A DNA stretch of 64,000 nucleotides from the human T2T-CHM13v2.0 reference genome, Homo sapiens. The stretch lies in assembly GCF_009914755.1 (NCBI RefSeq), contig NC_060927.1. One strand, 5' to 3'. This document shows positions 4,946 through 60,399 of this stretch, in pieces. The notes under the pieces were generated by a model, which was not told where the DNA came from, searched no databases, and saw only the letters and a list, made by a program, of their open reading frames with translations. Positions within the stretch are counted from its first letter, which is position 1. Each line of letters starts with the position of its first letter. Position numbers and translations under genes: made by a program.

Positions 4946-7670
4946 TAGGCAAAGAAGATGTCCTGTGCCTCTTTGCATGAATTAATAAGCTGTGATAAGT
5001 GGATTCGCTCCATGGCCCAGTGGTTACAAAACAGAACCTGTGCAAGCCCATTTCATATCCTCCTGGATGCAGCCTGTGAGGGGTTTTGAATCCAGAGAAG
5101 CCCTTTTGTTACATGTGAGCCCAGGACATTTTTGAAGAGAGAAGTCCATGCCCAATCTGAAATAAACTCTGTCACCAGGTTATAGCCTCTGCCTTTAAGA
5201 AAACTTTGGGCAATCTTAAACATTATTCAGAATGTGGGAGATACTTGAAGTGGTCAGTTATATTGATTTTTCAGGATCAAGAGTACATGAATTCTAAGAG
5301 AGAAATCAGAGGGTTTCAACAGGCATTTGGATGGAGTGGAACAAAAACTCCCTGGCTATGCCTGTGACCAAGACTATCACTGTTTGTTTTCCGCTAAGGG
5401 AAAACAGGGGCTAGCATGTTTGGTAAACTGTTACATGCCAGAGTGTTCACTAAATGCTTTATGCATTTGGGTCATTCTGACAAACATTGACTCATTTGTT
5501 GGTTATTTAAAAGGGACAATTGAAATATAAAATATGGTGAAATTCCTGATATTAATAAGTGTCTTTGTTCTATTTGAGAAATCAGATTAAAAAAAGAATT
5601 TGGCATTAGCACAATTTTTAAAAATAAAATTGTGGTCAAAGTCATTAATGAAATATTTATTTTTATTTGCTTTCTTCCCTCACTAATTTTCCAACAGACT
5701 TAATTTCTTCAAAATCGAATCCTTTATATTTCTTAAAGCTTCAGCATAATTTTACAAATTGTTGAAAATACATTCCATGTTTTCCTGGTCATGTTTCTCA
5801 TACCTAGACTATGTATTCAGTCAAACAGGGTGATGGTCAGGCCAAAGTTTATCTTATCACACCAGAGTTTTTAGGTCATTTCCAGTTTTCTTATTTTTTT
5901 TTTCTTTTCAAACTTTCACTTGAAAAGAAATTAATTGGAAAACACTAGCAAAGCTTTTTTCCTTCCTCTTTTGGCTACTTAACTGCCAACTGCCAATTGT
6001 TTCTGCATTCTTTATCTGATGTGCACAAGATACAGGAAAATTGTGGCTGTATTTGGAGTTGGCAATAGTTAAATGGAATTATAGAGAGTGACTAAAACCA
6101 ACATGTATTTTGTAGAGTCTTTTGATTACACACAGCTTTCTCTGAGACATAAAAAAAAAACCTCTTGAAGGATTAGCTTTCTAGGGAGAATTACCATTTT
6201 GAAAGATTTTTGCCACATTTCAATGACAAAATTATTCAGAAAAAAAAGTGCCTCTCTGTAAATAGTCTCTAAAGTCTCACAAACATCTGAGCTCTTGGGG
6301 GCCAGAATCAGGGCACAATTTGCGTAAATTAAATACACACACACATTTGATAATCCAAAGGTCTCTCAGATGTGTTTTGACCCCTCTGGAAAGTATCATC
6401 AAAATAACTGTACCATCTCTTCAAAAAAGCGCCTGTGACACGGACCATGAAAACACGGTTGTAGAAATCTTATTTTAACCATTGATGTATTACAGCTATG
6501 TTAAAGTGGCAGCTGAATTAACTTGGTTGAAAACCAAGTATGTTATATGTATCTTTTCCTCAACAGACCAGTGTGAAATATAAAGCTTATTTTTTTATGT
6601 AACTCCTTAAATGATCTAAATCCTTTATTTAAAACAACTTACCTTATGATAACTCTTCTGACAGATTTAAATACTCTTTTTATAATATGAGACTTTGCAT
6701 ATTTCTATTGAGATAGCTACATCAACACATTTCCTGAAATTTTTCTTAATAATTAATTTTAATAACATGTGATATGCTGGTTGGAATTTGTGGTTGTTTC
6801 ATGTGCCTATCTTATTAGAATTTCAAGCATTCCCAAAGCATTCATGTTGGAAAATGACTTAGACAAAATTTTGTGCAATTGGTTAATTTCTCATCAGAAA
6901 AAGTCCTGAGAGGTTGAGTAATTTTGCAGTTAACTAATGCCAGACCACTGTAAACAAGAAACAAAATGTGAATCAGATGCTACCTTCTCTGAAGATGGAA
7001 TCCATATCAAGCAAAAAATCTGACTTCAGAAATTCGCTTTGCAAATTAGTCCAGTAGCTGTCTGTCACGTCACCTGGCATCGGTCCACAGCCTCCCAGTA
7101 AGACACTTGATAGAGTGAAGACAGCAGAGTGAGAATGTGGTATCCTCCCTCGTCTAAGCCCTCCTTAGGCAAGCTCCCTCATTCCAGCTCTCTCATCCCA
7201 ATACAAGTTGGGGTAAGATAAGCTCTAGTTGTGAAATGCTCTATGACAAGAAAAATTCAGAGAATGTGCTTTTGTGACCATGAGAGTGTGTTTTACTGCT
7301 GGGATGAGGTGAGCCATACAGAGAGGCAGGTGGAGGGGGAGAAGAGAGCTGTGATCTTCCTGGAAATAATTTGCTCCCATGTCACCCCCGGAAAAGGCAT
7401 CTCCCTTAAATCAGGCAGGCATAATGAATGGTGTGATACCCGGCGGCCTGCACAGTTATAAATACACAACCTTTCATTCTAGAGATGGCCCATTACCACT
7501 CACTAAAACAGTCTGTCACAGTGGTGCTCTGGGGCCATTCATTTTTCATGACCTTCTTGGAGACGTGACTGGGATTTCCTGAAACCACGCATAGGTCCCT
7601 GCCCAGCAAGCGCTCTGCATTAACATCCCTTAATTCTTCTCTTCCAAAGGTTATCATGTCCTGTGGGGGG

Positions 7671-17350: not shown

Positions 17351-18392
17351 TCACATTATACTCTTAGGGAAGCCCTATAGTAACCATATAGATATAGATG
17401 GTTTTGAGGGGTTGAAGAGTAACTGTAGTTTCCAGACAAAAGATGAGGCAGTCTTAGGGTAGATTCTGTGCCCTTTAGAACAGACCTCTATGACACTTTT
17501 TCTTCTCACTGCTTGCTACATCATTTCCTCAAGAATCACAGGACTTTACAGTCTGTGCCGAAAGCAGCCAAAAACCAGTGGTTTTATGCCATTTTCCCTT
17601 GAATCCCTGCTGGTAAGCTTTTTAACATCTATCTTGCCTTTTGAAAGTGAAATGTTATTTTTTATGTCTTCAGCTCTCATAATTAGCTCAAGAACGTAGC
17701 TTTCTCAGCTAGCATTTTTTTACTCTTTTTAGACAGAACAACAATACCAAGTTTTCTGGATGCCTCTCTGTCTCCATCTGCTTTACCATCTCCCCTTAAT
17801 TGAGGAAAAATTCTAAGTAACCCTGATGGTCATTACTCGGTGTCAGTCTTGCCACTATGTCACAGCCTGTCATAATTACATGATGTCACTCTATGCTAAA
17901 TTCCCCCTCCTAATGAATGCTTCATTATCCAAAAGAGAATATATTATATTAAATCTACATTTTGCAGTTTTGGCATTTTGCTAAAGATTATGCTTTATCT
18001 GGACCTTGAGAATACCAGAGGTTCTTCCCTTTGACTTTGTATGCTTAAGTAGGCCTTGACCTTTCCCTTTTTGAAAACCATTGTTTGATGCTAAAATTTT
18101 AGTCACACTCTAGTTGCCTTCCATGGAGCATTAGGTAAAGCAGAAGTAGCAACACAACCCCAAAACACTAATTTAATAATTGTTGGTGGACTCTAGCTAA
18201 AACGTCTTAACTTGAATTATGATTGGAGGCATGAAAACATGAAGCAACATTTCAGATACTCCTGGAAAATTACACATTTGACTGTAGTAGTTAATAAGCA
18301 TAGAATTAATTATCAGAATTTTCAAGGTATAAGGTCGTCATAAACCAAAGACAGTATTTAGGCATATGTTAACTTTCCAACATACTTTAGTA

Positions 18393-57617: not shown

Positions 57618-57701
57618 GGCTGGGCACGGTGGCTCTTGCCTGTAATCCCAGCACTTTGGGAGGCCGAGGCAGGTGGATCGCCTGAGGTCAGGAGTTCAAG
57701 A
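57618..57701 (+). mobile_element. Alu 5' fragment (~84 bp)
   Basis: GGCTGGGCACGGTGGCTC...AGGAGTTCAAGA, flanked by the direct repeat AGAGCCACTCC. Confidence 0.92.
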
Positions 57702-58744
57702 GCCACTCCTGCTGGCTCTCTCACTGAGGGTTCCCCAAAGACCCTAACCCAGAGGCCCCTGACCTCTTGGGGCCTCCCCGGCACCCCAGCCCACCTCACT
57801 CCTCACCCCGTCACTATAAAAATGCATCAAACAATTTAGATGGAGAGGTTATGAGAGGAAAGGCTTTGCAACAGAAGTGAGAATTAAGCTGAAACCTGAT
57901 GAAGACAAAGTTATTCAAGGAAAGAAATGATGAAAGATTATTTCAGACAAATGCATTAAGGCGGCAAAGAGATTAAACTTTCTAGGAACTGAGGGAAGGC
58001 CAGTGACATGAAGAGGAGGAGAGTGGTGAGACATGTGGCAGGTTCAGTAGGTAGATGCCAGGTCATGCAGGGTGTGGTTGGCCAGAGTTGGAGTTTGAAT
58101 TTTACTCTAAACGCAGAGAAGCTATGGGTGTGTTTTAAACAGCAAGTGGCATAATTTGATTTGAGTTTTTCAGGATTACTTTGGATTTGTTGGAAGAGGG
58201 GTTGTTTGACCCCTTAAGATATTCCTTTTCCTAGGGCCATTTTTGGGGGGCTTGGCAGGCCCCAAAGCTAGGACAACAAAATTAAGAAAGAATTTTGATT
58301 TTGAAGAAGAACCAGAGATATTTCTAGGAACAGTAAAAGAAAGTGCAGCTTGACAGTAGGGAAAATCTTCTAACTGATATTCATCTTCCCTCCCCACTTC
58401 CAACCACCAGGCTTATTTAGATAGAATATAATAACCCAATAGAACCAAATGAGTATCACCTCAAAGTAGGAAATGAGGAGCAAATATGGGAGATTGGAAG
58501 GATTAAAGGGAAGAGAAGACATTCATAATAGGATTGTTTTGTAATGAATGGGAAAGACATGCTCCCAGAACGGCAGCCATGAAAAGCAGAGACAAAAGGA
58601 CCCACACTTACTGAGGAACCATGGAGGAGGATGAGTTGAAAGAGTAGAGGAGCCATTCTCCTCTACTTCACTGTAGACCCTACACGGATTGGATGATTGT
58701 AAAAGACAATTATTTAAATTAAAATGAAGGCTTCTCAGGTAATA

Positions 58745-58960
58745 GCAACTACAACAGAAACACTTATTGATGTTACACTATTGATCATTACTTTGCTAAA
58801 TTTAGCCAATGTCCAAAGTAATTGCCTGTATTAACTCATCAAAACTCACAGCAACACTGTGAGGTAGGGACTCTTAGAGTCCCTTTTATAGAGGAGCTAA
58901 TGGAGGCACAATGAGATTAGGGAACTTGCCCAAGGTCTCTAAATTGGAAAGTGGTGTTTA
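58745..58960 (-). mobile_element. MIR
   Basis: CTCACAGCAACACTGTGAGGTAGG...GAGGCACA...AACTTGCCCAAGGTC. Confidence 0.8.
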
Positions 58961-59716
58961 TGTATACATCATACTTTCTATTCCCTTTGCAACATCGTTA
59001 TAGTTTTTCCTGCTCATTTGAGTTTCAGGATTAATGTCCATTAATGGGTTGATTTTTTGAAGTCACATGGCTTCATTAGCAAGAGAGCCTGGATAAGACT
59101 ATAGTTAAATATAATGTGCAACTGCAGAAAACTGTGTCCTTCACAGCCCTCTCTATGATTTGCTTCCACTCCACTTCAATCAGCCGTGGGAACATGGATA
59201 GCTCCTCAGGGATAATGATGAATTACTAATGTAATTGTGTATTTCAAAGACCAGTAATAGTTCCAGTGCCAGGCAGATGATACAACTCTTACATATGATT
59301 GTTTTAGTTTTGACTGATGTTTAATCCTATTTTTATAGTTTTCAGGAAATGTATTGCAGTTTTTTTTTCCCCAAGAAACTAGTACTACTTAAGATTAACT
59401 GATGAAACTGTGGAAAATAGCTGCCATGAAAACAGTCATTACTATTAGGAAATGTAGAGCATAAATCTGAAATAAAGATCAAGCTCTTCTTTTCCTTATT
59501 AAAGCATAATTTTATGCATTGGTTGAATGCCTCTTTGAGTCATGGTGAAATTGAGCCACTTAATGATGTGGAAATATTTAGAATGTTCAAAAAGGAAACA
59601 TATTACAAGGGGCATCAGCACCTAGAAAAATGTCTATCTTTCATTTCTACAATTACAATTTTCCCAGTTACATTTTTTTTTGCAGAGATTTCTAATATAT
59701 TTGAACCCACAGCCAA

Positions 59717-59819
59717 TATATTGATTAGAGATCCATAGTGAATACCATGATACTTGGGTAAGATTCCTGCATTCTTACCCAAGTATCATGGTATTCACTA
59801 TGGATCTCTAATCAATATA
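59717..59819. repeat. Perfect inverted repeat, 47-bp arms, 9-nt spacer
   Basis: 59717-59763 (TATATTGATTAGAGATCCATAGTGAATACCATGATACTTGGGTAAGA) is the exact reverse complement of 59773-59819; spacer TTCCTGCAT. Confidence 0.97.
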
Positions 59820-59821
59820 AT

Positions 59822-60070
59822 TTTATCGACAAACATAGCCTCTATTATGTGCAAAACAAGTGCTTGGAAAAATAGAGACAACAGATCCTTAAGGATGGGA
59901 GAGGGCAAGTAGACCAAAAAATATAATTCAAAACAAATGAAGTAATGCTTATAAAATACGTTGAAAGAAAAATCTGCAAGGCTGCAAAGAAGGTAAGGTT
60001 AAGAAGCATAAGAATTTCCTGAAAGAGGTGCTATTGAGTAGAATCTTGAATAATATGGATTTCAAGTGTA
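59822..60070 (-). mobile_element. L2 fragment
   Basis: ACAAACATAGCCTCTATTATGTGC...TTCCTGAAAGAGGTGCTATTGAG...TCTTGAA. Confidence 0.55.
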
Positions 60071-60399
60071 AAATATTTCAAGTGTATATTAAGTCCCCGA
60101 GAAATATCGGCTATATGAGTGAAGTTAAAAATCTAGTGGGGAATAAAAGAAAGGAGAAGGTTTCAGGGCTCAGGAAATGACAAATGAGGATATTATTTCA
60201 GACGGAGACAGATCCTTCCCTGCTCACCTGCTCCTTCTAGTAAGAACTTACACCTGTAGTGAGATGTCAAGAAAGCTTAATTGAAATACAGGTTTTGACT
60301 GTCAGATAGTGAAGAAACAATTGGCTGTTATTTGATACATTGAAGAAATGTGGTGTTCAGAAAGGCTTGTAAACATAATTTAGAATATATGATTATTTT

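What the first reader, a model, noticed from the sequence alone, without database searches (positions are those of the whole stretch)
59717..59819. Perfect 47-bp inverted repeat with a 9-nt loop: candidate template-switch-born hairpin or de novo miRNA
Seen: the arms 59717-59763 and 59773-59819 are exact reverse complements (47/47), with loop TTCCTGCAT. The sequence is complex and does not resemble any MITE I recognise (not MADE1/2, MER3 or MER5), and there is no TSD. Neighbouring repeats are heavily decayed, so zero mismatches points to a very recent origin or ongoing homogenisation. Established: short-range template switching during replication creates such perfect hairpins in one step and has been proposed as a source of primate-specific miRNA genes; such palindromes also extrude cruciforms and let the spacer invert. 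Inference: if transcribed in either direction, the ~103-nt stem-loop has pri-miRNA-like dimensions.
Basis: partly seen in the sequence, partly recalled or inferred. Interest (0 to 1): 0.8.

Follow-up and report, generated by a model that had tools for sequence, protein, structure and literature searches.

The report
Single-copy perfect 47-bp palindrome, intergenic
A real, flawless 103-base hairpin-forming palindrome sits in unique intergenic human DNA; it is most likely a neutral by-product of a one-step copying error, and nothing here shows it to be a microRNA gene.

Summary
Arms 59717-59763 and 59773-59819 are 47/47 complementary around the spacer TTCCTGCAT. The next-longest perfect inverted repeat in the window is 11 bp.

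The arm occurs nowhere else in the T2T-CHM13 genome, and the 400-480 bp on each side are single-copy. Positive controls show the search finds old and young repeats. Complementarity stops sharply at the arm ends. A MITE is therefore rejected.

The best reading is a one-step inverted copy of adjacent unique DNA, made by a short-range template switch or fold-back synthesis. No primate or second human assembly was available, so I could not tell the ancestral arm, replacement from insertion, age or polymorphism.

"Very recent" is not required. With 94 non-CpG sites, zero mismatches fits ages up to about 32-80 Myr.

The miRNA idea has no support:
- only sub-threshold generic Rfam hits;
- a 47-bp stem and 9-nt loop against the preferred 35 bp and at least 10 nt;
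- an intergenic position.

Longer unique perfect palindromes are already catalogued in this genome. It is a new member of a known kind, of low interest.

The parts
59717..59763 (.). Left arm of the perfect inverted repeat (47 nt, 32% G+C, no CpG)
   Evidence: In the whole genome it is found only here and as the right arm.
59764..59772 (.). 9-nt spacer / hairpin loop, TTCCTGCAT
   Evidence: It is no more similar to the flanks than shuffles are.
59773..59819 (.). Right arm, the exact reverse complement of the left arm

Best explanation
The palindrome is a neutral structural mutation and not a gene. In a single event, a DNA polymerase left its template and copied 47 nt of the adjacent unique sequence in reverse-complement orientation. 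The copy was made from the nascent strand folded back on itself or from the complementary strand. The polymerase then returned, leaving a perfect inverted repeat around a 9-nt spacer (short-range template-switch mutation).

One arm is the original local sequence and the other is its copy. Since then no point mutation has hit the 94 paired bases. That is expected for anything from a present-day polymorphism to an event tens of millions of years old.

Shown here: the perfect repeat, its uniqueness, its sharp ends and the absence of a repeat family.
Inferred: the mechanism, the neutrality and the lack of transcription.
For: (1) The arms are 47/47 perfect with a 9-nt spacer, and the repeat is far beyond chance.

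(2) The source is local and unique.
- A 41-mer of the arm with up to 3 mismatches hits only the two arms in 3.1 Gb, with 0 hits for the reversed control.
- A 161-bp BLAST query finds only itself.
- The flanks 59300-59716 and 59820-60300 are single-copy.

(3) Half-arm patterns behave like chance.
- The outer half gives 2 other hits against 1 control.
- The inner half gives 13 other hits against 7 control.
- 10 of those 13 were fetched, and none aligns beyond 19-27 nt.

(4) The same search tool does find repeats. It found 45 other copies of the outer 26-45 nt of a chr11 palindrome arm at 87-100% identity. It also found 7 copies at 72-86% identity of an old repeat at window 58815-58942.

(5) The ends are sharp. 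Flank-to-flank and flank-to-arm alignments are no better than shuffles, with 232-393 of 500 shuffles scoring at least as well. It is therefore not the homogenised core of a longer decayed repeat.

(6) 47 nt lies inside the reported size range of human template switches, which reach 90 bp in complex sequence and 318 bp overall (PMC9435742, passages). Such events are reported to create perfect hairpins in one step, with more than 31,000 new stems in genic regions on the primate-to-human lineage (PMC10710096, Results).

(7) No annotated gene, MIR gene or functional element overlaps the repeat (hub gene table), and no Rfam family reaches threshold.
Against: That test is an outgroup or alternative allele showing one arm only, with the other arm replacing or being added to unrelated sequence. 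The mechanism is therefore inferred from the present-day sequence alone.

The locus was not found in three published lists of template-switch events. Those lists are filtered, only part of the files could be searched, and my GRCh38 position (about chr3:177.99 Mb) rests on a recalled offset of about 2.80 Mb. This is weak evidence either way.

Replicative template switching cannot be told apart from fold-back synthesis during break repair. Neutrality is assumed and was not measured.
Confidence: 0.72

Rival explanations
1. The palindrome is a fold-back (snap-back) templated insertion made during double-strand-break repair. A resected 3' end paired with itself through a few bases of microhomology next to the present loop. 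It was extended for about 47 nt and then joined to the other end, as in polymerase-theta-type end joining. The result is a net insertion of about 50 nt and not a replacement.
For: It gives the same product as seen here: a perfect inverted copy of directly adjacent sequence, a short 9-nt loop and abrupt outer ends. The mechanism itself is recalled from established knowledge and comes from no call.
Against: Templated insertions of this kind are usually much shorter than 47 nt (recalled). Nothing in the sequence separates this model from replicative template switching.
Confidence: 0.18
2. The palindrome is an older imperfect inverted repeat (quasi-palindrome) that was recently made perfect, or is kept perfect, by template switching or gene conversion between the arms, possibly with spacer inversion.
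For: Quasi-palindrome correction is the classical form of template switching (cited in PMC10710096). The arms are flawless, whereas a repeat about 800 bp upstream is only 72-86% like its relatives.
Against: Zero mismatches needs no homogenisation, because the mean wait for the first substitution is 10-27 Myr. There is no residual complementarity beyond the arm ends. There are no family members elsewhere that could be the source of an old repeat.
Confidence: 0.06
3. The hairpin is a young small-RNA gene (miRNA or hairpin endo-siRNA). It is transcribed in one direction and processed by Drosha and/or Dicer.
For: The stem is very stable as RNA on either strand (-79.7 kcal/mol). Template-switch hairpins have given rise to human miRNAs (PMC10710096). 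Rfam gives E-values of 1e-7 to 5e-5 for three miRNA models.
Against: The three Rfam hits are to unrelated fly, plant and bird families. All are far below gathering score: 48.9 against 70, 45.3 against 70 and 36.2 against 85. None reaches threshold in the whole window. They reflect a generic perfect helix.

The stem is 47 bp and the loop 9 nt, against the preferred 35 bp and 10 nt or more (PMC10710096).

My own motif reading (the motifs are recalled) found no basal UG and no apical UGU/GUG on either strand. CNNC occurs only at offsets 8 and 20 (+ strand) or 32 (- strand) from the stem end.

The locus is intergenic, and the only annotated exon in the window ends at 7174 (hub table). 89% of template-switch miRNAs are intragenic, and only 0.9% of suitable genic hairpins are annotated miRNAs. 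No paper main text holds 16-17-mers of the arm.
Confidence: 0.02
4. The 103 bp is a copy of an unrecognised palindromic MITE or other mobile element.
For: It has long terminal inverted repeats and a small size. The TA at both ends could hide a TA target duplication.
Against: There are no other copies in 3.1 Gb at any sensitivity tried, while the same tool recovers repeats of 72-97% identity. Human DNA transposons have been inactive for tens of millions of years (recalled), so perfect 47-bp ends would be unexpected.
Confidence: 0.01
5. The palindrome is an assembly artefact, or a mutation that arose in the CHM13 cell line and not in the human germline.
For: Only one assembly could be examined.
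Against: Inference only. A 103-bp palindrome embedded in single-copy sequence lies well inside single long reads of a polished consensus. Random library fold-backs would not reach consensus.
Confidence: 0.02

Closest known systems
Template-switch-mutation (TSM) hairpins of the primate lineage (Loytynoja & Goldman 2017; Loytynoja 2022, PMC9435742; Monttinen et al. 2023, PMC10710096)
   Same: It is a perfect inverted copy of directly neighbouring complex sequence that forms a complete stem in one step. Its size is within the reported range. It lies in non-repeat DNA.
   Different: The before-and-after comparison that defines a TSM could not be made. At 47 bp it is longer than most reported events. 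It is intergenic, whereas the miRNA-forming cases are mostly intronic. It was not found in the published lists I could search.
Catalogued long perfect inverted repeats of T2T-CHM13 (PMC13155455, Supplementary Table 4; e.g. chr9:114,631,601-114,631,798 and chrX:138,732,620-138,732,799)
   Same: They are perfect arms of complex, genome-unique sequence with a short spacer and unrelated flanks. I verified the chr9 case (95-bp arms, spacer 8) and the chrX case (88-bp arms, spacer 4). Each arm is found only at its own locus.
   Different: This one is shorter (47 bp). Its 9-nt spacer puts it just outside that survey's cut-off of 8 nt or less, so it would not be in that catalogue. It would meet the gfa criteria of the ape T2T non-B survey, which are arms of 6 or more and loop of 100 or less.
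MADE1 / mir-548-type palindromic MITE hairpins (recalled, from no call)
   Same: It is a roughly 80-100-bp element that is almost all terminal inverted repeat and folds into a long, near-perfect hairpin.
   Different: Those are families of thousands of diverged copies with TA duplications. This sequence is single-copy in the genome.
Canonical pri-miRNA hairpin
   Same: It is a stem-loop of about 100 nt, stable on either strand.
   Different: It has a 47-bp flawless stem and a 9-nt loop, against the preferred 35 bp and 10 nt or more. It has no mismatches or wobbles, no processing motifs in register, no family match and no known transcript.

Membership tests
Template-switch mutation (four-point TSM model) | The derived allele carries a reverse-complement copy of nearby sequence | tested here: met
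   47/47 inverted copy, 9 nt away from its source.
Template-switch mutation (four-point TSM model) | The ancestral or alternative allele has only one arm, so that a cluster of differences is explained by one switch | not testable with these tools
   No other primate or human assembly is held; the genome tool states 'no relatives here'. Published event lists gave no hit, but the searches were partial and the coordinates approximate.
Template-switch mutation (four-point TSM model) | Copied stretch within the observed size range and in complex, non-repeat sequence | tested here: met
   47 nt, against up to 90 bp in complex sequence. The arm and flanks are single-copy.
microRNA gene | Match to a curated miRNA family | tested here: not met
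   Best Rfam scores are 48.9/70, 45.3/70 and 36.2/85. There are 0 matches at gathering score in the whole window. No MIR gene appears in the hub's RefSeq table.
microRNA gene | pri-miRNA geometry: stem of about 35 bp, apical loop of 10 nt or more, imperfect stem | tested here: not met
   47-bp flawless stem and 9-nt loop. The preferred geometry is as stated in PMC10710096.
microRNA gene | Transcription, and phased reads of about 22 nt from the arms loaded into Argonaute | not testable with these tools
   No expression data are on hand. The locus is intergenic by the hub table. No paper main text holds the arm 16-17-mers.
Palindromic MITE (MADE1-like) | Many dispersed copies of the unit | tested here: not met
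   Only this locus was found in 3.1 Gb. Half-arm hits are at control level and do not extend. The tool's sensitivity is shown.
Palindromic MITE (MADE1-like) | Target-site duplication flanking the terminal repeats | tested here: inconclusive
   There is no direct repeat outside the arms. A TA duplication would be hidden inside the palindrome's TA ends.
Perfect inverted repeat / cruciform-forming non-B DNA motif | Mismatch-free arms of 10 bp or more with a short spacer | tested here: met
   Arms are 47 bp and the spacer is 9 nt. This is within the gfa definition (loop of 100 or less) and one base over the 8-nt cut-off of PMC13155455. Actual cruciform extrusion was not tested.

The most novel reading that the evidence does not exclude
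The hairpin is an ape- or human-specific palindrome caught before any post-birth mutation. It would be transcribed by unannotated intergenic transcription and diced into small RNAs, making it an incipient de novo small-RNA locus. It could also still be polymorphic in people, with spacer inversion or breakage at the palindrome centre.
Probability: 0.02. Interest if true: 0.55.

Novelty: new member of a known kind. Interest (0 to 1): 0.2.

Why it matters
On its own it matters little. It is one more long perfect inverted repeat in unique human DNA. Thousands of hairpins made by template switching are already described, and longer perfect palindromes are catalogued in this same assembly.

Its modest value is as a clean example. 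It is complex, single-copy and sharply bounded, with no later mutations. Outgroup and pangenome alignment could therefore read off the switch points exactly. It could also serve as a test locus for palindrome stability or spacer inversion in human populations.

The age calculation is a useful caution: a flawless 47-bp stem without CpG sites is not in itself evidence of recent origin.

Tried and rejected
- Repeat or MITE origin: rejected by whole-genome searches of the arm, both half-arms and both flanks. 10 of the 13 near-matches to the inner half were inspected; the three on the reverse strand were not fetched.
- Using paralogous repeat copies as a stand-in outgroup to tell which arm is ancestral: impossible, because the arm and its flanks are single-copy.
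- Hidden longer or decayed inverted or direct similarity in the flanks, including a GATTTCTAAT / ATTAGAGATC resemblance I noticed by eye: no better than shuffles.
- Rfam: only generic sub-threshold hairpin hits.
- Published template-switch lists:
  - Loytynoja 2022 supplements: 0 occurrences of four arm fragments, but 11 of 22 files were not searched.
  - Walker et al. 2021, file s015.tsv (4,016 rows): no start coordinate beginning 17796-17800, and the one row beginning 17801 is on chr2.
  - Loytynoja & Goldman 2017: 0 occurrences in 7 of 8 files.
  - The coordinate look-ups depend on a recalled T2T-to-GRCh38 offset of about 2.80 Mb and a recalled GRCh38-to-GRCh37 offset of about 0.28 Mb.
- Full-text search for arm 16-17-mers as DNA and RNA: 0 papers. 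Supplements are not covered by that search.
- Pol III shRNA-like reading (TTTT right after the stem, an AT-rich stretch 20-25 nt upstream): dropped. It comes from my own reading of the sequence, with no motif scan run. I saw no proximal-element-like sequence, and a T9 run lies just upstream. In 64% A+T DNA these features are expected by chance.

Full report
**Observation**

The window holds a flawless inverted repeat at the stated coordinates.
- The arms 59717-59763 and 59773-59819 are 47/47 complementary around the 9-nt spacer TTCCTGCAT.
- The repeat cannot be extended by a single base, because 59716 and 59820 are both A.
- The arm is complex sequence with 32% G+C and no CpG.
- With the window's base composition, the expected number of such repeats is about 5e-21 per window and 3e-16 per 3.1 Gb.
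- In the real window, the 11 maximal perfect inverted repeats of 10 bp or more with spacer 60 or less comprise this one, two of 11 bp and eight of 10 bp.
- Either strand folds into one uninterrupted stem: -79.7 kcal/mol as RNA with z -14.5, and -49.9 kcal/mol as DNA with z -18.2.

One caveat applies to 'no TSD'. The arms start and end with TA, which is its own reverse complement. A TA target duplication would therefore be invisible.

**Is it a repeat or a mobile element?**

The whole T2T-CHM13 assembly was searchable.
- A 41-mer of the arm with up to 3 mismatches occurs only as the two arms, with 0 hits for the reversed control.
- A 161-bp query finds only its own locus.
- The flanks 59300-59716 and 59820-60300 are single-copy.

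I then searched the two halves of the arm with up to 3 mismatches, to reach copies of about 87% identity.
- The outer half gave 2 other hits against 1 control.
- The inner half gave 13 other hits against 7 control.
- I fetched 10 of those 13, all on the forward strand. None aligns to the locus beyond 19-27 nt around the seed, so they are chance matches.

Two results show that the search tool can find repeats.
- The outer part of a chr11 palindrome arm gave 45 other matches of 26-45 nt at 87-100% identity.
- Window 58815-58942, about 800 bp upstream of the hairpin, matched 7 other places at 72-86% identity.

A MITE family or any other dispersed repeat is therefore rejected.

**Anatomy of the ends**

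Local alignments were scored against 500 shuffles each. I compared the left flank with the right arm plus right flank, in direct and inverted orientation, and the left flank with the right flank.
- All were at chance, with 232-393 of 500 shuffles scoring at least as well.
- The spacer also has no source in the flanks.

The complementarity begins and ends abruptly. It is not the homogenised core of a longer decayed palindrome. Because everything here is single-copy, paralogues could not stand in for an outgroup to tell which arm is ancestral.

**Mechanism**

The sequence shows a perfect reverse-complement copy of immediately adjacent unique DNA, with a very short spacer and sharp ends. This is what a short-range template switch produces in one step.

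I read the abstract and the Results of PMC10710096. They report:
- 53,666 putative events in genic regions on the primate-to-human lineage;
- 31,007 of these forming a new stem;
- 6,054 of miRNA size.

Passages of PMC9435742 report:
- 872-1121 high-quality events per human genome;
- copied stretches up to 90 bp in complex sequence and 318 bp overall.

A 47-nt copy is therefore long but within range.

I commit to this mechanism at about 0.72. The defining evidence, an allele with one arm only, could not be obtained because no other primate or human assembly is held.

The main rival is fold-back synthesis during break repair, at about 0.18. It gives the same product and differs only in predicting a net insertion. 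Quasi-palindrome correction or ongoing homogenisation (about 0.06) is not needed to explain the data, as the next section shows.

**Age**

I used recalled human substitution rates of 0.4-1.0e-9 per site per year. The 94 paired non-CpG sites then wait 10.6-26.6 Myr on average for their first substitution.
- A perfect state is compatible at the 5% level with ages up to 32-80 Myr.
- With a flat birth rate, the chance that the event is younger than 6.5 Myr is only 22-46%.
- The chance that it is younger than 0.5 Myr is 2-5%.

This ignores any palindrome-specific instability, which would shift the estimate younger. The palindrome may well be shared with other apes.

**The miRNA idea**

Three Rfam miRNA models match the hairpin at E-values of 1e-7 to 5e-5. 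They are unrelated families:
- mir-982, 48.9 bits against a gathering score of 70;
- MIR5200, 45.3 bits against 70;
- mir-1662, 36.2 bits against 85.

Nothing in the whole window reaches a gathering score. I read these hits as the response of hairpin models to any perfect helix.

Other points against a miRNA:
- The geometry is off the stated preference of a 35-bp stem and a loop of 10 nt or more: here the stem is 47 bp and flawless, and the loop is 9 nt.
- The processing motifs I recall (basal UG, apical UGU/GUG, CNNC in register) are absent or out of register on both strands.
- The hub's RefSeq table shows no transcript over the locus. The only annotated exon in the window ends at 7174.
- 89% (99/111) of template-switch miRNA loci are intragenic, and only 0.9% (57/6,054) of suitable genic hairpins are annotated miRNAs.
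- No paper main text in the library contains 16-17-mers of the arm. Supplements are not covered by that search.

I put a small-RNA function at about 0.02. It remains untested and is not refuted.

**Comparison with what is known**

A survey of perfect inverted repeats (PMC13155455; passages, Supplementary Table 4) lists human T2T repeats with arms of 80-140 bp and spacers of 8 nt or less. I fetched six of them.
- Three are AT-rich and look like low-complexity sequence (11-20% G+C).
- chr9:114,631,601-798 (95-bp arms, spacer 8) and chrX:138,732,620-799 (88-bp arms, spacer 4) are complex sequence. They have unrelated flanks, and their arms occur only at their own locus. They have the same anatomy as the present case at twice the size.
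- The chr11 case (80-bp arms, no spacer) is partly built from a dispersed repeat.

The present repeat misses that catalogue only because its spacer is 9 nt and the cut-off is 8. It meets the criteria of the ape T2T non-B DNA annotation. It is a new member of a known kind.

**Published event lists**

I looked for the locus in three sets of supplements.
- Loytynoja 2022: 0 occurrences, but 11 of 22 files were not searched.
- Walker et al. 2021: the event table has 4,016 rows. No chr3 row lies near my estimated GRCh38 position. The only prefix match is on chr2.
- Loytynoja & Goldman 2017: 0 occurrences in 7 of 8 files.

My GRCh38 and GRCh37 positions rest on recalled offsets, so these negatives are weak.

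**Verdict**

This is a real, striking-looking but ordinary structural feature. It is best explained as a neutral one-step inverted copy. Interest is 0.2. The decisive steps are outgroup alignment, a pangenome check and small-RNA mapping. All three are simple and lie outside the tools available here.

Noticed in passing
window 60059-60090: A 16-bp tandem duplication, ATTTCAAGTGTAAAAT / ATTTCAAGTGTATATT (88% identity), lies about 240 bp downstream of the palindrome. It is a second small local duplication in the same kilobase.
   Followed up: no
window 58815-58942: An old dispersed repeat: 7 other genomic places match at 72-86% identity over 49-114 nt. The family was not named because no Dfam library was available.
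   Followed up: partly
window 59675-59683 and 59821-59824: A T9 run lies about 35 nt upstream of the stem, and TTTT lies directly after it. This is superficially like an shRNA with Pol III terminators. In 64% A+T DNA, with no promoter element that I could see, I judged it to be chance.
   Followed up: partly
L017 302-499 (G000:C9:114631601-114631798) and L018 321-500 (G000:C23:138732620-138732799): Two much longer perfect palindromes of complex sequence (95-bp arms with spacer 8; 88-bp arms with spacer 4). Their arms occur nowhere else in the genome. They are listed in PMC13155455 Table S4. Their origin appears not to be discussed in the passages I saw.
   Followed up: partly
L019 302-461 (G000:C11:5253731-5253890): A perfect 80-bp-arm palindrome with no spacer. 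The outer 26-45 nt of its arm belong to a dispersed repeat, with 45 other matches at 87-100% identity. The inverted duplication therefore spans a repeat edge and adjacent sequence.
   Followed up: partly
window 57629-57706: An Alu-like sequence (GGCTCTTG...CCTGTAATCCCAGCACTTTGGGAGGC...) lies about 2 kb upstream. No dispersed repeat was found by the genome searches between 59300 and 60300.
   Followed up: no
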